This document shows, piece by piece, positions 16,159-31,568 of a stretch of 32,000 nt of DNA (within the stretch, counting starts at the first letter, position 1; each line of letters opens with the position of its first letter). Both the position numbers and the translations under genes were made by a program. Source of the stretch: Acaryochloris thomasi RCC1774 (lineage in GTDB: Bacteria; Cyanobacteriota; Cyanobacteriia; Thermosynechococcales; Thermosynechococcaceae); the NCBI RefSeq assembly GCF_003231495.1, contig NZ_PQWO01000006.1, forward strand, positions 60,001 to 92,000. Direction: 5' to 3'. The notes beneath the pieces are model-generated. The model saw only the letters and a program-made list of their open reading frames with translations, had not been told where the DNA came from and ran no database searches.

Positions 16159-16231
16159 GGGGAATTAGCTCAGCTGGTAGAGTGCTGCGATCGCACCGCA
16201 GAGGTCAGGGGTTCGAATCCCCTATTCTCCA
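16159..16231 (+). tRNA. tRNA-Ala (anticodon CGC)
   Basis: Hand-folded: acceptor GGGGAAT/ATTCTCC with the Ala identity pair G3:U70, D arm GCTC-AGCTGGTA-GAGT, anticodon arm CTGCG-ATCGCAC-CGCAG (anticodon CGC), T arm AGGGG-TTCGAAT-CCCCT, discriminator A. 73 nt. Confidence 0.9.
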
Positions 16232-16358: not shown

Positions 16359-18254
16359 ATGGATTCTCACGATCAATCCCTATCCCCCACGAAACGAGCG
16401 CTCCAGGCGATCCAACTTTTACAGGCCAAGGTGGAGGCGTTGGAAAAAGCTAGGGATCAGCCTATTGCTGTTATTGGTCTTGGCTGCCGCTTCCCCGGAG
16501 CCAGTAATCCTTCTGAATTCTGGGAACTCCTTCAAGGTGGCAAGGATGCCATTTCAGAAATTCCCCGCGATCGATGGGATATCAATCGCTACTACAGTCC
16601 TGATCCCGGCAGCCCTGGCAAAATGACCACCCGTTATGGTGGGTTTGTCTCAGATCTCTTGGACTTCGACGCCAAGTTCTTCCGGGTTTCCCCCCGAGAA
16701 GCAATGAGTTTAGACCCCCAGCAGCGACTGCTCCTAGAAGTCAGTTGGGAAGCTCTAGAGAATGCGGGATTGGCGCCCGACTCACTGGCAGACCGTCAGG
16801 TCGGTGTCTTTGTTGGCATCAGCGCTATTGACTACTGGCACCAGCTTCTCAAGCGCGATGCTGACGATATTGATGCTTATTTAATTACCGGCAATACCCA
16901 TAGCGTGGCCTCCGGTCGCATTTCTTATCTCCTAGGGCTGACGGGACCGAGTTTGTCTGTTGATACGGCCTGCTCCTCTTCGCTGAGCGCGATGCATCTG
17001 GCTTGTCAAAGCCTACGTCATGACGAGTGCAGCGTTGCGATTGCGGGTGGGGTGAATGGCATTCTCAATCCAGAGGCCACGATCAACTTTTCCAAGGCCC
17101 AAATGTTGTCCGCCGATGGGCGCTGTAAGTCTTTTGATCAAGCGGCGGATGGTTTTGGTCGGGCTGAGGGATGTGGTGTCGTAGTGCTCAGGCGACTCAG
17201 CGATGCCGTTGCCGATGGCGACAATATCCGGGCGGTGATTTTAGGATCAGCGCTCAACCATACGGGGCGCACCAGTGGTTTGACGGTGCCCAAGGGACCG
17301 GCTCAGCAACAGGTGATTAGAGATGCGATCGCAACCACTAAACTCACCCCCAGCCAGATCAGCTACATTGAAGCCCACGGCACCGGCACTGCTCTGGGCG
17401 ACCCCATCGAACTCGGAGCCTTGCGCGAAGTCTTTGGTCCGCATCGCAGTGAACCGCTCCTCGTTGGATCGGTCAAGACCAACATTGGCCATCTCGAAGC
17501 CGCCTCCGGTATGGCCGGATTGATTAAGGTGGTTCTGTCCCTGCAGCACAGCGCGATTCCCGCCAACCTTCACTTCAAAACGCCGACCCCTCACTTTGAC
17601 TGGAGCCAGCCGCTGCAGGTACCTACGCAGTTGACCCCCTGGCCCTCTTCCGACTCGCCACGGACTGCCGGAGTGAGTGCCTTTGGCTTCAACGGTACCA
17701 ATGCCCATCTGATCGTCTCCGAGCCACCCGATATCTCCATCTCCCAGGTGCCTCCTCTTCCCTATCAGCTCCTCACCCTCTCTGCCCGCAGCGCCCTTGC
17801 CCTACAGCAGCTTATCAATCGCTATATCAACTTTCTCAAGCATCGACCCCAGCTTTCCTCGCTGGGTGAATTGTGCTGGACCGCGAATACCGGACGATCT
17901 CATTTTCCCCACCGCTTAGCTGTCATTGCCGCCTCAGTCTCAGAGCTGCAAAAGCATTTGCTGGCCGTCAGTCAAGGCACAACTCCCACGGGCGTGATTC
18001 AGGGACAGGGGAACAATGCGAGCACTTCCACAGTCCAATTGAGCCATCAACAGATCCAAGTCTCTGGACTCTCAAACAAGGTGCAGAAGATTCCACTACC
18101 GCCGCCCTCTGAGCAGTGGTTGCTTGTTTTGAAGGCTCTTGCTGAGCAGTATGTGATGGGTGCTTCTATCCATTGGCAGACGTCAGGGTTTCAACCGTAT
18201 CGTAAAATTGAGTTGCCGACCTATCCCTTTCAGAGACAGCATTACGGCCTGTGA
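16359..18254 (+). CDS. Stand-alone type I PKS-like beta-ketoacyl synthase (KS plus linker subdomain; no AT, ACP, KR or DH)
   Basis: [43 protein letters not shown] (Cys codon 16971-16973), [14 protein letters not shown] (His 17376-17378), [12 protein letters not shown] (His 17490-17492) and [11 protein letters not shown] are present. The C-terminal ~175 aa resemble the KS-AT linker plus post-AT linker and end [13 protein letters not shown]-stop. I prefer the ATG at 16359 (MDSHDQ...) over the track's TTG at 16326. Confidence 0.85.
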
Positions 18255-18305
18255 AGATAGCTGTTAAGAGCGTTTATTCCCTTGCTATAATTGGAGAAGT
18301 TTGTA

Positions 18306-18968
18306 ATGACAAACCCCATGCCTAAATCTATGATTGCCGACTCGTTAAAAACTGGACAACGCCTAACTGCTGGCCTCCTCGGACTAGGGTTAGTGTTAGG
18401 GGCCAGTCAAGCGCTTGCGGCCAAGACTCATCCATTCGATGCTCAATCAGGTGAGCGGTTTTCGTCAACTGCAGCTCAGCAGTTAGTCGCAGTTCAGCCG
18501 GGTCAAGTTTCAGTAACCGGTCAAAATGGGCAGTACAGGGGAGAGGTCTTGGTGCAGGCGCCCGCCGATATGGCTTGGAAGGTGCTGACGGACTATGAGA
18601 ACTTTAAAAACTTTCTGCCTAATGTGTCTGAAAGTCGCGTGATCTCCGCTGAAGGCAATCAAAAAGTCTTTGAGCAGGTCAACGTTTTCCGGGTCCTTAC
18701 TTTTACGAAACAGGCTCGGGTCAAGATGGCTTCTACAGAGAGCTATCCCAAGCAGGTCTCTTTTCAAGTCATGGAAGGCGATGTCAAAGATCTGAAGGGA
18801 ACCTGGACGATTTCATCGCCTGCGCCGAATCAAGTCCTGATCAGCCATGAGGTGACCGTTGTTCCCAAGGATTCAGACAACAAGACGATGTTTTTTGGCA
18901 TCTATAAAAATTCACTAAAGAAGACGATCGCAGCCGTGGGCAAAGAGGTTGAGCGTCGCGCACAGTAG
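18306..18968 (+). CDS. Secreted SRPBCC-superfamily protein (polyketide cyclase/dehydrase-like, START fold)
   Basis: The signal peptide is LTAGLLGLGLVLGASQALA-AK. The body VLVQAPADMAWKVLTDYENFKNFLPNVSESRVI...FEQVNVFRVLTFTKQARVKM...LKGTWTI...ISHEVTV fits the Polyketide_cyc2/SRPBCC pattern. I prefer the ATG at 18306 (GGAG 11 nt upstream) over the TTG at 18291. Confidence 0.65.
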   Translation: MTNPMPKSMIADSLKTGQRLTAGLLGLGLVLGASQALAAKTHPFDAQSGERFSSTAAQQLVAVQPGQVSVTGQNGQYRGEVLVQAPADMAWKVLTDYENFKNFLPNVSESRVISAEGNQKVFEQVNVFRVLTFTKQARVKMASTESYPKQVSFQVMEGDVKDLKGTWTISSPAPNQVLISHEVTVVPKDSDNKTMFFGIYKNSLKKTIAAVGKEVERRAQ

Positions 18969-19800
18969 TCCCTTACCCAGCGATACCCACGCCATTATTA
19001 CCGGTGGCTCAAGCGGTATTGGTCGAGCCACGGCAGCGGTGCTCGCCCAGCAGGGTGCGAGTCTAACGCTGATTGCCCGCACCGCATCAAAATTAGAGGA
19101 GACCCGTCAAGCTATTGAACGGCAGGGCCTGCAGAACTCGCAGCAGGTTTTGACGCTCACGGCGGATGTGTCAGATCGCGCCCAGGTAGAGAAGGCGATT
19201 GGAGATGCGATCGCAACCCTAGGTCCGCCCGATCTATTAATTACCTGTGCTGGCATCGCCCACTGCGACTACTTTCAGAACCTATCCCTCGAAATGTGTG
19301 AGCAGGCGATGGCCGTCAACTATTTCGGGTCGCTGTACTGCATTCGCGCTGTCTTACCGGCGATGGAACAGCGGCGTCAGGGTCACATTGTCGTAGTTTC
19401 CTCCGGCGTGGGCTTGATTGGACTGTACGGATACAGCGCCTACAGCCCGACCAAATTTGCTCTGCGGGGACTGGCTGAATCCCTGAGAGGGGAGCTTAAA
19501 CCTTTAGGGATTGGCATCTCTATTGTCTATCCCCCCGATACCGATACGCCCCAACTCGCCCAAGAGAATCTGACTAAGCCTTTAGAAACGCAGCGCATTA
19601 GCAGCACCGCCAAAACTTGGACGGCAGAACAGGTAGCCCACACCATTCTTTCCGGTCTCAAAAACAAAAAATTTATGATTGCTCCCGGTCAAGAGATGAC
19701 GGTACTCGCGCGATTACACAGTCTCATTTCTCCTTTGCTGCATCGCTACTTTGACGGCATCGTGGCTAAAACGCGCCGAGAACGGCAGTCCCATGACTAG
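18949..19800 (+). CDS. Short-chain dehydrogenase/reductase, 3-ketodihydrosphingosine-reductase (KDSR/FVT1)-like subfamily
   Basis: It has the Rossmann motif ITGGSSGIGRA and the catalytic residues SSGVG...YSAYSPTKFALRG (YxxxK). The C-terminal tail LISPLLHRYFDGIVAK resembles the KDSR tail (…FDSIVRR) as I recall it. There is no in-frame ATG upstream of the Rossmann motif. The only canonical start is TTG at 18949, which overlaps the preceding gene by 20 nt. Confidence 0.75.
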   Translation: MSVAHSSPLPSDTHAIITGGSSGIGRATAAVLAQQGASLTLIARTASKLEETRQAIERQGLQNSQQVLTLTADVSDRAQVEKAIGDAIATLGPPDLLITCAGIAHCDYFQNLSLEMCEQAMAVNYFGSLYCIRAVLPAMEQRRQGHIVVVSSGVGLIGLYGYSAYSPTKFALRGLAESLRGELKPLGIGISIVYPPDTDTPQLAQENLTKPLETQRISSTAKTWTAEQVAHTILSGLKNKKFMIAPGQEMTVLARLHSLISPLLHRYFDGIVAKTRRERQSHD

Positions 19801-21577
19801 TTGGCAGCATTTTCTTGATCGAAGCCAGCGCCTGTTTACGCCCAATAACCGCACCTTCTGGTTCCGGCTTAGTTTTATCGCTCCCCTTTACTTTGGCTTG
19901 ATTGCCCTTGGCTACCAGATGTTGGGGCCTGAATATGTTGTTCAAGACGATGCCCGCCAGCATGTGGTGTGGATGCAGCGGTTTGTTGACCCGCAGGTGT
20001 TTGCAGGAGATGCGATCGCAAACTACTATCTCGCCATTGCTCCCCCTGGCTATAAAGGTTTCTATTGGATACTTGCTCAGCTCGGCATTGAACCCCTGCT
20101 CACGGCCAAATTTCTGCCCCTGATTTTGGCGCTGATCACCACATATTTTGCCTATAAACTGGCCCTGAAAATCTTGCCGGTTCACCTCTGCGGCTTCTTG
20201 ACCACCCTCATTCTCAATCAACAAATTTGGCTAGATGATGAACTGATCTCAGCCACACCCCGCGCTTTCTACTATCCGCTATTCACGACTTTTCTCTACT
20301 GTGTGACCCAGCGCGCGCTGATCCCTTGTCTTGCCATTATTGCCTTGCAGGGACTTTTTTACGCTCCGGTAATGCTGCTCAGCGTTGCGATCTTGAGCCT
20401 CCGGCTATTGACCTGGAGACAGCGCTGGCCCCGATTGACGCAGGATCGGAGCCGCTATCTTTTCTGGTTCGCAGGTTGCTCAGTCGCCGCCCTGGTTATT
20501 CTTTTCCTACTCCGTAGTCAGGGTGTCGGTCCCACCGTGACCGCTTTGCAAATGAGAGATCTGCCTGAGTTTGGCCTCCACGGACGCCACGAATATTTTG
20601 ACGTCAACCCCCTCTACTTTTTGTTTCAAGGTAGAAGCGGCCTCAACATTTCTTGGTTTCCCGCCAGTATTCTCATGGGCTTGGCGCTGCCCTTCCTCGC
20701 CATCGGTCGCTTCACTCAAAAAATGACGCCTAATGTTGCCGTCATTTACCAGTCCTTTGCTGCCGCTCTCGGCCTGTATATCCTGGCTCATTTACTGTTG
20801 TTTAAGCTCTACTACCCTAGCCGATATACCTACCACAGCCTCCGGGTAATCCTCGCGCTCGCTGCTGGCATCGCACTGACGATCCTGCTAGAAGCTGGCT
20901 GGTCTTGGATGCAGCACAAACGGCAAACGCAGGCTCCCTTCCACCGTCGAGAGCAGCTTTTGATTACATTCATTGGTTTATTGATCGCCATTGAATTGCT
21001 TGTCCCGGCCCTGCCACCGGTCTTTTTAGCAATGGAAGTCTGGATTGAGGGCCAAGCACCCGAACTTTACACCTTTCTTGCCCAGCAGCCACGCGATACG
21101 GTTGTCGCCACCCTCGCTCCAGAAAGTGATAATTTGGGTGCCTTTGCCCAGCGATCGACGCTCATGGGCCATGAATTCGCCCTCGCCTTGCATCCTCAAT
21201 TCCACCGGGTTGTGCAGCAGCGGATTGCTGCTTTGCTGGACGCACAGTACAGCTCAGATCCAGCCGTTGTGCAGCAAATTATTGATCAATACAGCATTGA
21301 TTTCTTTTTGGTTGAGCATTCTGCCTTTACCCCCGAGTATCTCCTGAGTCAGGATTGGCTTGTTAATCGCTCAGACACGGCTTCAGTCACGAAAGCGATT
21401 CAGCAGATGCGCACAAAGCCTACGAGTTTGCTCTTTCCCAAGGCCCTCACGCCCTGTGGTATTCGTTCGACCCAAGACTGGACTTTACTGGAAACGCAGT
21501 GTCTCAGCCGGTTTCTTGCGACATCTCCGATTACGGACCGCAGCGGGAGAGAAACAGATGATCCACGGGCTAGCTAG
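19793..21577 (+). CDS. Large polytopic membrane protein with a C-terminal soluble domain; possibly a GT-C-type glycosyltransferase
   Basis: 594 aa from the ATG at 19793, which overlaps the SDR stop (ATGACTAG). About 10-12 hydrophobic helices are visible. The first predicted loop carries an acidic DD motif (EYVVQDDARQHVVWMQRF), as in GT-C enzymes. The last ~170 aa are hydrophilic. The function is inferred only. Confidence 0.6.
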   Translation: MTSWQHFLDRSQRLFTPNNRTFWFRLSFIAPLYFGLIALGYQMLGPEYVVQDDARQHVVWMQRFVDPQVFAGDAIANYYLAIAPPGYKGFYWILAQLGIEPLLTAKFLPLILALITTYFAYKLALKILPVHLCGFLTTLILNQQIWLDDELISATPRAFYYPLFTTFLYCVTQRALIPCLAIIALQGLFYAPVMLLSVAILSLRLLTWRQRWPRLTQDRSRYLFWFAGCSVAALVILFLLRSQGVGPTVTALQMRDLPEFGLHGRHEYFDVNPLYFLFQGRSGLNISWFPASILMGLALPFLAIGRFTQKMTPNVAVIYQSFAAALGLYILAHLLLFKLYYPSRYTYHSLRVILALAAGIALTILLEAGWSWMQHKRQTQAPFHRREQLLITFIGLLIAIELLVPALPPVFLAMEVWIEGQAPELYTFLAQQPRDTVVATLAPESDNLGAFAQRSTLMGHEFALALHPQFHRVVQQRIAALLDAQYSSDPAVVQQIIDQYSIDFFLVEHSAFTPEYLLSQDWLVNRSDTASVTKAIQQMRTKPTSLLFPKALTPCGIRSTQDWTLLETQCLSRFLATSPITDRSGRETDDPRAS

Positions 21578-30278: not shown

Positions 30279-31568
30279 ATGAAAATTGCCCTCATTAGTT
30301 CAGGATTTTTACCGGTTGTTGATGGTGTATCTGTTGCGATCGCAAACCGTCTACAGCAGCTCAGTCGCCAAGGTCATTCTGTCTTATTACTGGTTCCCGA
30401 TTACGCGGCTCTGGGGCAGACTTATCCCGATTGGCAAACCCACGTGGGTTCAATTCTGCCCAATGTGAAAGTGGTGCCTTTAGAAAGTAATCCGGCCCTG
30501 GGCCTCGCCTTTGAGCGAGATGTCAAACCCAAAGCCTATCGAACTGTGCTCGCTGAGCTGGGGGCTTTTGCACCTGACATCATCCATGTCGATGAACCCG
30601 AAAGGCTCTCTTTTTGCTTGCTTAAAAAGCCAGGAATTGCCTATGCACGCCAGCACAATATTCCCTGTGTGGGCTTTTTTCATACCCACTATATTGACTA
30701 CATCGATGACTATGTAACCTGCCCTAAGATTTTTACTGCAGGTATCCAAGCACTCTTCAAAGTTCTGTTCGCTTGGATATATAACAGCTATGATGCCACT
30801 CTGGTTGCCAGCCCTACAACCTACCAAGCCGTCTGCCGGATGGGGATTCGCAATGCGGTGCAGGATGATTTTTTAGGGTTCGATGCTCCTAGCTTTTGGG
30901 CCGTTCAACGTCAGCCTCATTTTTTTGAGCAAACCTATGGGCTCAAGAATCTTGAAAACACCGTCAGGCTGGTATTCGTGGGTCGCCTCACACCGGATAA
31001 AGGCTGGGGCTTTACCTGCCACGCCGCTCGACAGCTAATCAAGGCAGTGAATCCTGCTGATGTTTCCCTAATCATTGTCGGCGACGGTCCACTTAGAGAA
31101 TCTCTTGAACAGGATTTAGGCTCACTTTTCACTCACGTTCATCTTCTGGGGCGCATTCCACCCCAGCAGATGCCTGCACTACTGGCGAATAGCGATATCC
31201 ACGTGACTGCCTCAGCGAAAGAAACGACGGGGTTAACGGTTCTAGAGGCGAGTGCATCTGGAATCCCGATACTGGCACCCCGAGCAGGCGGCGTTGTTGA
31301 CTATATCTACGATGGTCAAACAGGTTTCTTGTTCAATCCACAGGACCCAGAAGACTTTGTGCAAAAGCTTCGGTTTCTGATTGAGAATATGACTGTTCGG
31401 CAGGCGATGGGAGCCGCTGGCAAAGATCATGTCATCCCATACAGTTGGGAGCAGGCCGTCGAGAGATTATTGATATTTTGGCAAACAAAAATTTCTGAGC
31501 GTACACGAGAGAAGTTCCAGACCACTCTGCATTCGCCCCCCCAGCCCCCTGAGTCTGGAGGGAGTTAG
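30279..31568 (+). CDS. Glycosyltransferase family 4 (GT-B, group 1)
   Basis: 429-aa ORF. The N-terminus MKIALISSGFLPVVDGVS is typical of GT4. The C-terminal half has GRLTPDKG and the EX7E region ETTGLTVLEASASGIPILAPRAGG. It lies 34 nt downstream of the last kinase gene on the same strand. Confidence 0.85.
   Translation: MKIALISSGFLPVVDGVSVAIANRLQQLSRQGHSVLLLVPDYAALGQTYPDWQTHVGSILPNVKVVPLESNPALGLAFERDVKPKAYRTVLAELGAFAPDIIHVDEPERLSFCLLKKPGIAYARQHNIPCVGFFHTHYIDYIDDYVTCPKIFTAGIQALFKVLFAWIYNSYDATLVASPTTYQAVCRMGIRNAVQDDFLGFDAPSFWAVQRQPHFFEQTYGLKNLENTVRLVFVGRLTPDKGWGFTCHAARQLIKAVNPADVSLIIVGDGPLRESLEQDLGSLFTHVHLLGRIPPQQMPALLANSDIHVTASAKETTGLTVLEASASGIPILAPRAGGVVDYIYDGQTGFLFNPQDPEDFVQKLRFLIENMTVRQAMGAAGKDHVIPYSWEQAVERLLIFWQTKISERTREKFQTTLHSPPQPPESGGS

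What the first reader, a model, noticed from the sequence alone, without database searches (positions are those of the whole stretch)
16359..18254. Stand-alone type I PKS ketosynthase with its AT domain missing, ending exactly at the post-AT linker motif
- **Catalytic residues.** The protein keeps the full KS triad: DTACSSS, EAHGTGT and [10 protein letters not shown].
- **KS-AT linker.** After the KS core (…[15 protein letters not shown]) comes a segment that reads like the KS-AT linker of cis-AT modular PKSs: [27 protein letters not shown]…[29 protein letters not shown]…GVIQGQG.
- **Missing AT.** Where a ~300-aa acyltransferase (GHSxG) should begin there are only ~35 residues: [35 protein letters not shown].
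- **Post-AT linker.** Next is a post-AT-linker-like segment, [45 protein letters not shown], followed by TGA at 18252-18254. In canonical modules YPFQRxRYW leads into DH/KR/ACP.
- **No partners nearby.** I found no ACP, AT, KR, DH or TE domain anywhere in the 32 kb.

An intact-looking condensing enzyme with no carrier protein or loading partner nearby is unusual. It could be a PKS relic or a KS that works on a carrier encoded elsewhere.
Basis: partly seen in the sequence, partly recalled or inferred. Interest (0 to 1): 0.65.

Follow-up and report, generated by a model that had tools for sequence, protein, structure and literature searches.

The report
Stand-alone AT-less polyketide ketosynthase, conserved
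This is an intact, selectively maintained condensing enzyme that has lost its loading domain; it belongs to an undescribed cyanobacterial family that most likely finishes the work of a large fatty-acid-loading synthase encoded elsewhere and feeds an uncharacterised envelope-lipid pathway.

Summary
ORF 16359-18254 encodes a 631-aa type I PKS ketosynthase with an intact Cys205/His340/His378 triad, the KS-AT linker subdomain and the post-AT linker. It has no AT, and the window holds no ACP, AT, DH or FAAL.

It is not a relic or an artefact. More than 80 cyanobacterial proteins share the architecture and the stop position, and dN/dS is 0.13 (0.06 in the KS core). About 30 relatives keep a shrunken AT without its nucleophile serine, so AT decay probably preceded excision.

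In sequence it is closest to cis-AT CurL. In shape it equals a trans-AT KS plus flanking subdomain.

In six other genomes the gene lies directly beside a FAAL-ACP-KS-AT-DH-ER-KR-ACP megasynthase. That megasynthase ends in a docking tail, and the KS begins with a conserved helix that could match it. A megasynthase of Acaryochloris thomasi RCC1774 sits on a contig of the same length as the window's source contig.

Downstream in one operon are an exported SRPBCC protein, a ketosphinganine-reductase-like SDR and a Pfam-less GT-C-fold membrane protein.

Best reading: the split-off terminal condensing enzyme of an uncharacterised lipid pathway. It is a new variant of a known kind and moderately interesting.

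The parts
16359..18254 (+). Gene for the stand-alone KS-LD protein (631 aa plus stop): docking helix, KS, KS-AT linker subdomain, spacer and post-AT linker
   Evidence: ORF; Pfam; family alignment; AF2 model pLDDT 87.6; Foldseek
16383..16454 (+). N-terminal docking-type helix, residues 9-32 ([24 protein letters not shown])
   Evidence: Nearly invariant in the family. AF2 predicts a helix at 10-32. It resembles the N-terminal docking helices of cis-AT PKS subunits (PMC9113145). The docking function is inferred.
16458..17726 (+). KS catalytic core, residues 34-456; Cys205 (16971-16973), His340 (17376-17378), His378 (17490-17492)
   Evidence: PF00109 and PF02801; invariant C205/H340/K373/H378; dN/dS 0.058
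17727..18011 (+). KS-AT linker (flanking) subdomain, residues 457-551
   Evidence: PF16197, PF22621 and PF22336; superposes on the CurL linker and on trans-AT flanking subdomains
18012..18116 (+). Spacer of 35 residues (552-586) where the AT would be. It is conserved only among the closest relatives and is predicted to form beta strands.
   Evidence: Alignment. Insert length is 9-60 aa in short forms and 164-254 aa in dead-AT forms. AF2 predicts strands at 556-561, 565-569 and 576-579 with pLDDT around 87-95.
18117..18251 (+). Post-AT linker, residues 587-631, ending in [13 protein letters not shown]
   Evidence: Motif conserved in 107 of 111 relatives; aligns to the C-termini of trans-AT KS structures
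18291..18968 (+). Exported SRPBCC (Polyketide_cyc/START-like) protein. The start codon is uncertain (18291, 18306 or 18318).
   Evidence: PF03364 and PF10604. A signal peptide is present in all 8 orthologues examined. The gene follows the KS in the window and in L004, L005, L006, L026, L028, L029 and L030.
18949..19800 (+). SDR reductase, overlapping the SRPBCC gene by 20 nt; its closest solved relative is 3-ketodihydrosphingosine reductase TSC10
   Evidence: PF00106; PDB 8jat E=1.7e-28; syntenic in L005, L006, L028 and L030
19793..21577 (+). 594-aa polytopic membrane protein without a Pfam family, with a GT-C glycosyltransferase fold; overlaps the SDR stop by 8 nt
   Evidence: 794 homologues, all named 'hypothetical'. 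AF2 pLDDT 86.7. Foldseek matches STT3/AglB/PglB, DPY19, AftA and ArnT with E from 1e-7 to 1e-3. Q51-D52-D53-x-R55-x-H57 is invariant just after the first hydrophobic segment. Syntenic in L003, L005, L026 and L028.
16159..16231 (+). tRNA-Ala(CGC) marking the upstream boundary of the cassette; in other genomes the megasynthase occupies this side
   Evidence: ARAGORN

Best explanation
The gene encodes a catalytically competent type I PKS ketosynthase of the cis-AT sequence lineage. Its AT domain has been excised, leaving the KS, the KS-AT linker (flanking) subdomain and the post-AT linker. This is the same structural unit as a KS of a trans-AT PKS.

It belongs to a cyanobacteria-wide family of stand-alone proteins that are either AT-less (about 610-670 aa) or carry a dead, shrunken AT (about 800-850 aa).

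Proposed mechanism:
1. The protein is the split-off KS of a second module.
2. Its N-terminal helix docks onto the C-terminal tail that follows the last ACP of a FAAL-ACP-KS-AT-DH-ER-KR-ACP megasynthase. That megasynthase loads a fatty acid and extends it once with full reduction.
3. The stand-alone KS takes the saturated acyl chain onto Cys205.
4. It performs one further decarboxylative Claisen condensation with a malonyl group on a carrier. The most likely carrier is the megasynthase's own terminal ACP, reloaded by the megasynthase's AT.
5. The resulting 3-oxo lipid is reduced by the co-transcribed ketosphinganine-reductase-like SDR.
6. The product is handled outside the cytoplasm by the exported SRPBCC lipid-binding protein and the GT-C-fold membrane enzyme.

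Shown: the architecture, the conservation, purifying selection, the gene neighbourhoods and the folds.

Inferred: docking, the identity of the extender carrier, the chemistry after condensation and the nature of the product.
For: Architecture and competence:
- Pfam finds KS plus linker and no AT.
- The C-H-H-K residues are invariant.
- The AF2 model matches CurL KS-AT only through the linker (54% identity, TMq 0.79, TMt 0.56). It matches trans-AT KS plus flanking-subdomain structures over their whole length (TM 0.80-0.88 both ways).
- By sequence it is closest to cis-AT CurL (669 bits) and less close to trans-AT KSs (400-425 bits).

The gene is maintained:
- 81 short and 30 mid-length homologues appear among the top 120 hits.
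- 107 of 111 end 5-17 residues after YPFQR.
- dN/dS is 0.13 overall and 0.058 in the KS core.

AT decay series:
- 29 of 30 mid-length forms have replaced the GHSxG serine.
- Their insert is 164-254 aa, against 9-60 aa in the short forms.

Partner:
- The megasynthase lies directly upstream on the same strand in L001/L002, L006, L026, L027 and L028, and divergently in L003.
- Its domain order is FAAL-ACP-KS-AT-DH-ER-KR-ACP, with no release domain.
- It ends in a conserved ...LSEAEAEALLLxxLEQL tail, while every family KS begins with the conserved helix.
- P0293 (Acaryochloris thomasi RCC1774, 2871 aa) lies on a 289,386-nt contig. That is the contig length recorded for the window's own P0001 and P0121.
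- 16 contig lengths are shared between the KS and megasynthase hit lists.
- Intact two-module relatives (P0259, P0260) have a second-module KS that is 57-58% identical to this KS.
- In the closest named relative the megasynthase is also unlinked and nothing PKS-like follows it.

Cassette:
- KS-SRPBCC-SDR-GT-C recurs in L005 and L028, and partly in L003, L004, L006, L026, L029 and L030.
- In the window the genes are tightly spaced or overlapping.
- The SDR resembles TSC10, the GT-C fold is well supported and the SRPBCC signal peptides are conserved.
Against: - No experiment supports any step, and the product is unknown.
- No ACP is encoded in the KS operon in any locus, so the extender carrier is a guess.
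- Neither the megasynthase nor the operon has a TE, R or other release domain.
- The megasynthase is not adjacent in the window or in L004, L005, L008-L010, L012 and L029.
The look-ups that would give positions failed.
- Docking is inferred from sequence resemblance only.
- The SRPBCC, SDR and GT-C genes are each missing next to the KS in some genomes, so their link to the KS is statistical.
- If the megasynthase's own KS could iterate, a second KS would seem redundant.
Confidence: 0.55

Rival explanations
1. Chain-terminating or off-loading KS. The protein still partners with the FAAL megasynthase, but it does not hand a product back to an ACP. It would condense the acyl chain with a free acceptor such as malonyl-CoA, releasing a 3-oxo acid or, after decarboxylation, a methyl ketone. 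Alternatively it would release the chain by another KS-catalysed reaction. The SDR would then reduce a free keto lipid.
For: - Neither the megasynthase nor the operon has a TE or R domain.
- Related FAAL megasynthases carry a fused terminal PLP-dependent alpha-oxoamine-synthase-type domain instead (P0304). A neighbouring PKS in L031 ends in the same kind of domain. Terminal decarboxylative condensation as a release step therefore occurs in this group.
- The SDR's closest solved relative acts on a free 3-keto lipid.
- A terminal KS in a chain-release region is described for TgPKS2 (bioRxiv 10.1101/2023.05.23.541938, abstract seen).
Against: Type I KS domains normally use ACP-bound extender units. 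No evidence here shows use of a CoA-bound or free acceptor. The intact C-H-H triad fits ordinary elongation equally well.
Confidence: 0.2
2. The KS works with the primary fatty-acid-synthase carrier (AcpP). It would either bridge the PKS to FAS-II elongation or act independently of the FAAL megasynthase as an extra elongating KS for an envelope lipid.
For: - The KS operon lies away from the megasynthase in the window and in L004, L005, L008-L010, L012 and L029.
- No dedicated ACP is encoded in the operon.
- The operon sits among housekeeping genes.
Against: - The conserved N-terminal helix and the megasynthase's C-terminal tail point to a specific PKS partner.
- The two genes are immediately adjacent in six genomes.
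- The KS is a modular-PKS type: FabF models score 179 bits against 765 for the PKS model.
Confidence: 0.1
3. A decaying remnant of a larger PKS gene (pseudogene or relic) without function.
For: The AT is missing, and the window has no ACP or other PKS domain.
Against: - dN/dS is 0.13 overall and 0.058 in the KS core.
- The catalytic residues are invariant across the family.
- The same end point occurs in 107 of 111 relatives.
- The operon context is conserved.
Confidence: 0.03
4. An assembly or frameshift artefact: the stop at 18252 truncates a longer KS-AT-... gene.
For: None beyond the unusual architecture.
Against: - Independent assemblies from many genera stop at the same place.
- The next ORF, 36 nt downstream, is a conserved SRPBCC gene with its own signal peptide.
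- No AT-like sequence occurs in any frame of the window.
Confidence: 0.01
5. A component of a genuine trans-AT PKS, served by a discrete trans-acting AT.
For: The KS plus flanking subdomain without an AT is the architecture of trans-AT KSs.
Against: - The sequence is closer to cis-AT KSs: CurL 669 bits and DEBS about 480-490 bits, against 400-425 bits for trans-AT KSs.
- Sister sequences are ordinary cis-AT module KSs.
- Relatives retain a dead cis AT.
- No discrete AT gene was seen in any neighbourhood.
Confidence: 0.05

Closest known systems
KS plus flanking subdomain units of trans-AT PKSs (bacillaene PksJ KS2 4na1, OzmH KS7 4ope, MgsF KS4 4zdn, Brevibacillus BGC11 7zm9)
   Same: Same structural unit: KS, a vestigial KS-AT linker subdomain and a wrap-back linker ending in LPTYPF, with no AT. 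TM-scores are 0.80-0.88 in both directions, and the sequence alignment runs end to end.
   Different: Those are internal domains of multimodular proteins, are followed by their own ACPs and are served by discrete ATs. This protein is stand-alone, has no ACP, belongs to the cis-AT sequence lineage, and has relatives that still carry a dead cis AT.
CurL KS-AT didomain of the curacin cis-AT PKS (PDB 4mz0)
   Same: Closest solved sequence and structure: 669 bits, 54% identity, with KS and linker superposable. Both are cyanobacterial, and both begin with an N-terminal docking region at an ACP/KS subunit junction (PMC9113145).
   Different: CurL has a complete, active AT and the rest of a module. 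Here the alignment stops at the linker (query residues 4-557) and target coverage is only 0.56.
Cyanobacterial olefin synthase (Ols: FAAL-ACP-KS-AT-KR-ACP-ST-TE)
   Same: A FAAL-initiated, single-extension type I PKS acting on fatty acids in cyanobacteria (PMC11837247 and PMC10114076).
   Different: The partner megasynthase here has DH and ER and lacks ST and TE. Ols has no stand-alone KS, SRPBCC, SDR or GT-C partners.
Mycobacterial FadD32-Pks13-CmrA mycolate condensation system
   Same: The logic is analogous: FAAL loading of a long acyl chain, a final Claisen condensation by a type I KS, reduction of the 3-keto product by a separate SDR, then envelope export. This analogy rests on my own knowledge of that pathway. 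Pks13 appears among the hits.
   Different: Pks13 carries its own ACPs, AT and TE and condenses two long chains. No carboxyacyl-CoA machinery is seen here, and similarity is limited to the generic KS core (NF040607 535 bits against a cut-off of 2100).
Terminal KS domains used in chain release (TgPKS2 KS-TR region; fungal TAS1 C-A-PCP-KS)
   Same: A KS at the very end of an assembly line without its own AT or ACP. For TgPKS2 see the abstract of bioRxiv 10.1101/2023.05.23.541938. TAS1 is from my own knowledge.
   Different: Those are fused domains in eukaryotic synthases with different chemistry. No sequence or phylogenetic link was tested here.
HglE/PfaA-type KSs of heterocyte-glycolipid and PUFA synthases
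   Same: Cyanobacterial type I KSs that make long-chain envelope glycolipids (PMC11804610).
   Different: The PfaA model scores 246 bits against a cut-off of 1010, while modular PKS models score 525-765 bits. The gene context is also different.

Membership tests
Decarboxylating type I PKS/FAS ketosynthase | Thiolase-fold KS with N- and C-terminal halves (PF00109, PF02801) | tested here: met
   E=3.5e-101 and 4.8e-44, both full length
Decarboxylating type I PKS/FAS ketosynthase | Cys-His-His catalytic triad and the conserved Lys | tested here: met
   C205, H340, K373 and H378 are present and invariant in the family
Decarboxylating type I PKS/FAS ketosynthase | Condensing activity with malonyl-ACP | not testable with these tools
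   Requires an enzyme assay
Canonical cis-AT PKS module | AT domain with the GHSxG nucleophile after the KS-AT linker | tested here: not met
   No PF00698 hit. 35 residues stand in its place. No GHSxG of PKS type occurs in the window.
Canonical cis-AT PKS module | ACP in the same protein or module | tested here: not met
   The protein ends 5 residues after YPFQR, and the window has no PP-binding domain
Canonical cis-AT PKS module | KS sequence groups with cis-AT KSs | tested here: met
   CurL 669 bits and DEBS 480-493 bits, against 400-425 bits for trans-AT KSs. On an NJ tree without support values it is sister to ordinary cyanobacterial module KSs.
trans-AT PKS | KS followed by a flanking subdomain without an AT | tested here: met
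   End-to-end sequence and fold match to trans-AT KS structures
trans-AT PKS | Discrete trans-acting AT encoded with the synthase | tested here: not met
   No free-standing AT gene in the window or in any of the neighbourhoods examined
trans-AT PKS | KS falls in the trans-AT KS clade | tested here: inconclusive
   Scores favour cis-AT. The tree contained no reference trans-AT sequences.
Non-condensing KS variants (KSQ, KS0, decarboxylase KS) | Active-site Cys replaced (Gln or Ser) or a His lost | tested here: not met
   Cys and both His residues are retained and invariant
PfaA/HglE-type synthase KS | Reaches the TIGR02813 family score | tested here: not met
   246 bits against a cut-off of 1010
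Olefin synthase (Ols) pathway | Sulfotransferase and thioesterase terminal domains in the partner synthase | tested here: not met
   The partner is FAAL-ACP-KS-AT-DH-ER-KR-ACP and has neither
Docking-domain-linked PKS subunit pair (cis-AT class 2 type) | N-terminal coiled-coil helix on the KS and a matching C-terminal tail after the upstream ACP | tested here: inconclusive
   Both elements are present and conserved, and the class description comes from PMC9113145. Neither the physical interaction nor class assignment by alignment to CurG/H was tested.
GT-C glycosyltransferases (neighbour gene 19793-21577) | GT-C membrane fold with an acidic motif just after the first transmembrane segment | tested here: met
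   Foldseek probability 1.00 to STT3, AglB, PglB, DPY19, AftA and ArnT. D52-D53 are invariant directly after the first hydrophobic segment at 21-41. Activity was not tested.

The most novel reading that the evidence does not exclude
The KS, the FAAL megasynthase, the exported SRPBCC protein, the ketosphinganine-reductase-like SDR and the Pfam-less GT-C enzyme together make an undescribed envelope lipid found across many cyanobacteria. The product might be a long-chain 3-hydroxy or keto lipid that is glycosylated on the outer face of the membrane. The chain-terminating step would be carried out by a cis-lineage KS that lost its AT through a dead-AT intermediate, probably several times. That would be a living record of how an AT-less KS architecture arises.
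Probability: 0.25. Interest if true: 0.75.

Novelty: new variant of a known kind. Interest (0 to 1): 0.5.

Why it matters
**PKS enzymology.** The family offers natural, selectively maintained examples of three states in close relatives: intact AT, dead shrunken AT and no AT. These are a ready-made series for asking what the KS-AT linker and post-AT linker do on their own. They also bear on how a cis-AT module can turn into a trans-AT-like unit.

**Cyanobacterial biology.** The work links five genes into one candidate lipid pathway present in many genera: Leptolyngbya, Thermoleptolyngbya, Elainellaceae, Limnospira, Chroococcus, Hydrococcus, Waterburya and Acaryochloris. Two of the five have no useful annotation. 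I found no description of this pathway in the searchable literature. It gives a first functional hypothesis for a family of about 800 'hypothetical' GT-C-fold membrane proteins.

**Genome annotation.** These genes are variously named 'beta-ketoacyl synthase N-terminal-like domain-containing protein', 'polyketide synthase' or 'acyl transferase domain-containing protein'. The last name is wrong for the AT-less forms.

Tried and rejected
1. **Natural fusions.** I asked whether the 3,500-3,600-aa Nostoc and Floridanema megasynthases are fusions of megasynthase plus this KS. They are not. They carry extra N-terminal domains and end in an ACP.

2. **Representative search.** I ran the search of protein representatives with the KS to look for other architectures. 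The top 150 hits are all multi-KS synthases of more than 4,000 aa, because scores sum over domains. The result was uninformative.

3. **Contig positions.** The look-up of encoding contigs for P0293 and P0001 would have given the distance between megasynthase and KS on the source contig. Neither is on record.

4. **Genome scan.** The search for related loci in genome contigs returned only 21 loci, because rare-peptide patterns were used. Most were ordinary Chloroflexota multimodular PKSs.

5. **Literature.** Seven searches and seven papers read in part gave no description of this KS family or gene set. Subscription-only papers were not searchable.

6. **HglE/PfaA and Ols identities.** Both were considered and rejected on model scores and domain content.

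7. **Second PKS in L031.** The KS-AT-DH-ER-KR-ACP-aminotransferase protein was considered as the true downstream partner of the megasynthase. I rejected it as a docking partner because its KS starts at residue 4, with no docking helix, and it lies on the opposite strand.

8. **Promoter and terminator scans.** Counts did not exceed the shuffled expectation, so I did not use them.
Full report
**1. The observation**

An ORF runs from 16326 (TTG) or 16359 (ATG) to the TGA at 18252-18254 on the + strand. Orthologues begin at the position of the ATG, which gives 631 aa.

Pfam finds both KS halves (residues 34-283 and 292-406). It also finds three overlapping models for the KS-AT linker region: KAsynt_C_assoc at 416-519, the CurL-like linker at 470-534 and the RhiE-like linker at 474-540. 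It finds no acyltransferase domain.

C205, H340, K373 and H378 are invariant in a 40-sequence family alignment. Residues 552-586 are the 35-residue spacer. Residues 587-631 are the post-AT-linker segment, which ends in [13 protein letters not shown].

Nothing else in the 32 kb is PKS-related. Pfam scans of all ORFs of at least 120 aa show housekeeping, envelope and signalling genes. A tblastn and motif scan aimed at small ACPs, AT, DH and FAAL gave only noise, with every hit at E > 0.05.

**2. Not a relic and not an artefact**

A search of 5.8 billion proteins returned 81 proteins of 600-700 aa among the best 120 hits. They share the same Pfam content, 55-94% identity and full-length coverage, and every named one but a single hit labelled Candidatus Gracilibacteria is cyanobacterial. 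Genera include Leptolyngbya, Thermoleptolyngbya, Elainellaceae, Nodosilinea, Pegethrix, Romeria, Chroococcus, Hydrococcus and Limnospira.

107 of 111 family members end 5-17 residues after the YPFQR motif, so the stop position is a family character.

Against a 94%-identical orthologue (L030), dN/dS is 0.13 overall. It is 0.058 in the KS core, 0.25 in the linker subdomain and 0.43 in the spacer. Against the 72% orthologue L005 the KS core gives 0.064.

**3. An AT decay series**

Thirty further relatives are about 780-855 aa and do have a Pfam AT hit. In the alignment the insert is only 164-254 aa. The GHSxG nucleophile serine is replaced in 29 of the 30, by Gly, Asp, Glu, Lys, Thr or Ala. Examples are GHGIGE, GYGVGE, GWGAGE and GDDVGE. 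The exception, P0085, is a fragment of an ordinary PKS. In the short forms the insert is 9-60 aa.

On a neighbour-joining tree of KS cores, the short and dead-AT forms make one clade. This clade is sister to ordinary cyanobacterial module KSs and then to Chloroflexota PKS KSs. The dead-AT forms are scattered and basal, with short forms nested among them several times. The tree has no support values, so this is tentative. It suggests that the AT was first inactivated and then excised more than once, always leaving the linker subdomain and the post-AT linker.

**4. Shape versus lineage**

The closest solved protein is the cis-AT CurL KS-AT didomain. It scores 669 bits and 54% identity, aligned only to residue 557. 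DEBS didomains score about 480-490 bits. Trans-AT 'AT-less' KS constructs (PksJ, PksL, MgsF, OzmH and Brevibacillus BGC11) score 400-425 bits but align from residue ~31 to 630.

The AlphaFold model has pLDDT 87.6. It matches CurL with query coverage 0.79 but target coverage 0.56. It matches trans-AT KS plus flanking-subdomain structures with TM 0.80-0.88 in both directions.

So the protein has the architecture of a trans-AT KS but the sequence ancestry of a cis-AT KS.

**5. The partner**

In Leptolyngbya FACHB strains (L001, L002), a Leptolyngbyaceae MAG (L006), a Limnospira MAG (L026), Leptolyngbya ohadii (L027) and a JGI genome (L028), the KS gene lies directly downstream of a 2,750-3,050-aa gene on the same strand. 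In Chroococcus FPU101 (L003) the two are divergent neighbours.

The big protein is FAAL-ACP-KS-AT-DH-ER-KR-ACP. It has no thioesterase, reductase or other release domain. All examined copies end, after the last ACP, in a conserved ...LSEAEAEALLLxxLEQL tail. All family KSs begin with a nearly invariant helix, [22 protein letters not shown], which AF2 predicts as a helix at 10-32. These are the positions and the general character of the C- and N-terminal docking domains that join ACP-ending and KS-starting subunits in cyanobacterial cis-AT PKSs (PMC9113145). The interaction itself is inferred.

Intact two-module relatives (P0259, P0260; about 4,490 aa) have a second-module KS that is 57-58% identical to the window's KS and is followed by an AT and further domains. 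This fits an origin of the stand-alone KS as a truncated module 2.

**6. The partner in this genome**

A search with a complete megasynthase (L006) returned P0293. It is 2,871 aa, named from Acaryochloris thomasi RCC1774, and lies on a contig of 289,386 nt. That is exactly the contig length recorded for the window's own KS (P0001) and GT-C protein (P0121). P0293 carries the same docking tail.

The window is therefore very probably from that contig, with the megasynthase beyond the window's 32 kb. The position could not be retrieved.

In the closest named relative, a Thermosynechococcaceae MAG, the KS operon (L005) and the megasynthase (L031) are on different contigs. Nothing PKS-like follows the megasynthase there.

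Across the three hit lists, 16 contig lengths are shared by KS and megasynthase and 16 by KS and GT-C. Three are shared by all three lists.

**7. The cassette**

In the window the KS is followed by three genes:
- an SRPBCC gene, 36 nt downstream (18291-18968);
- an SDR gene (18949-19800), overlapping the SRPBCC gene by 20 nt;
- a 594-aa membrane-protein gene (19793-21577), overlapping the SDR gene by 8 nt.

The same order recurs in L005 and L028. Parts of it recur in L003 (KS-membrane protein), L004 and L029 (dead-AT KS-SRPBCC), L006 and L030 (KS-SRPBCC-SDR) and L026 (KS-SRPBCC-GT4-membrane protein).

All eight SRPBCC orthologues examined have signal peptides, and the only PDB sequence hit is a weak START lipid-transfer match. 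The SDR's best solved relative is 3-ketodihydrosphingosine reductase TSC10, at E=1.7e-28.

The membrane protein has no Pfam family and 794 homologues, all named 'hypothetical'. Its model (pLDDT 86.7) has a GT-C glycosyltransferase fold. It matches STT3/AglB/PglB, DPY19, AftA, ArnT and ALG9/12 with E from 1e-7 to 1e-3. A Q51-D52-D53-x-R55-x-H57 motif is invariant right after the first hydrophobic segment.

**8. Mechanism**

Shown: a competent-looking, maintained KS without AT or ACP, and its recurrent adjacency to an ACP-terminated, release-domain-less FAAL megasynthase and to the SRPBCC, SDR and GT-C genes.

Inferred:
1. The KS docks on the megasynthase tail and takes the saturated, once-extended fatty acyl chain onto Cys205.
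2. It condenses the chain with malonyl on a carrier, most economically the megasynthase's terminal ACP reloaded by its AT.
3. The 3-oxo product is reduced by the SDR.
4. The lipid is then handled by the exported SRPBCC protein and the GT-C enzyme.

The main rival keeps the partnership but makes the KS the chain-releasing step. The lack of any release domain favours it, as does the fact that related synthases end instead in a PLP-dependent alpha-oxoamine-synthase-type condensing domain (P0304, and the second PKS of L031).

A FAS-linked role is less likely. Relic, artefact and true trans-AT membership are contradicted by the data above.

**9. Comparison and novelty**

The KS meets the defining features of a decarboxylating type I KS. 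It fails those of a complete cis-AT module, having no AT and no ACP. It shares the architecture of trans-AT PKS KSs but shows neither their sequence affinity (by the scores) nor a discrete AT. It is not KSQ/KS0, not PfaA/HglE (246 bits against a cut-off of 1010) and not part of Ols.

Seven literature searches and the papers read found no description of this family or gene set. Subscription journals were not searchable, so prior description cannot be excluded.

I class it as a new variant of a known kind. Interest is moderate, at 0.5. The architecture itself has precedent. What is new and testable is the dead-AT to AT-less series and the link to an unannotated GT-C family in a widespread candidate lipid pathway.

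Noticed in passing
L031:444-9790 (same MAG as L005): Divergent from the FAAL megasynthase lie an HMGL-like gene and a second 2,701-aa PKS. Its domain order is KS-AT-DH-ER-KR-ACP followed by a C-terminal PLP aminotransferase-class I/II (alpha-oxoamine-synthase-type) domain. P0304 (3,331 aa) is a FAAL megasynthase with such a domain fused on. This suggests amino-lipid (sphingoid-like) products in this group.
   Followed up: partly
L027:1-7932 (Leptolyngbya ohadii megasynthase P0329); also P0287: These megasynthases have DH and ER but no detectable KR, either by tblastn or in the precomputed Pfam list. That is odd for a reducing module. No SDR gene lies next to the KS in L027.
   Followed up: no
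L026:10522-11766 and L001:13359-16750: Extra glycosyltransferases accompany the cassette in some genomes. In Limnospira a GT4 gene sits between the SRPBCC and GT-C genes. In Leptolyngbya FACHB two PMT_2 (GT-C) genes lie 3.5 kb downstream of the KS.
   Followed up: no
window:2447-7249 (- strand): A six-gene run on the minus strand: a TPR protein, DUF58/vWA, a MoxR-type AAA ATPase (AAA_3), DUF4350 and DUF4129. This looks like a MoxR-vWA chaperone-type cassette.
   Followed up: no
window:14193-15215: A protein that combines an N-terminal GYF_2 domain with an AIM24 domain.
   Followed up: no
window:15328-16231: tRNA-Arg(CCG) and tRNA-Ala(CGC) flank a PsbP-family (CyanoP-like) gene immediately upstream of the KS. 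In other genomes the megasynthase occupies this side of the KS, so this may mark a rearrangement point.
   Followed up: partly
window:22269-30244: A run of two-component genes: a LuxR-type response regulator, a hybrid kinase with a receiver domain, a 1,378-aa dCache-HAMP-PAS-GAF hybrid histidine kinase, and a receiver-PAS kinase.
   Followed up: no
window:8830-13971 and 30279-31568: Several envelope or lipid-related genes lie near the cassette: an NAD-dependent epimerase, a 464-aa protein with a sub-threshold acyltransferase (PF01553) hit, a FemAB-like protein and a GT4 glycosyltransferase. No link to the KS cassette was tested.
   Followed up: no
L008, L009, L010, L012 (Waterburya / Chroococcales): A more distant branch of stand-alone KSs (about 650 aa, 51% identity) has none of the recognised partner genes nearby. 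Megasynthase homologues are, however, recorded on contigs of the same lengths as L010 and L012 (5,596,561 and 5,305,086 nt).
   Followed up: partly
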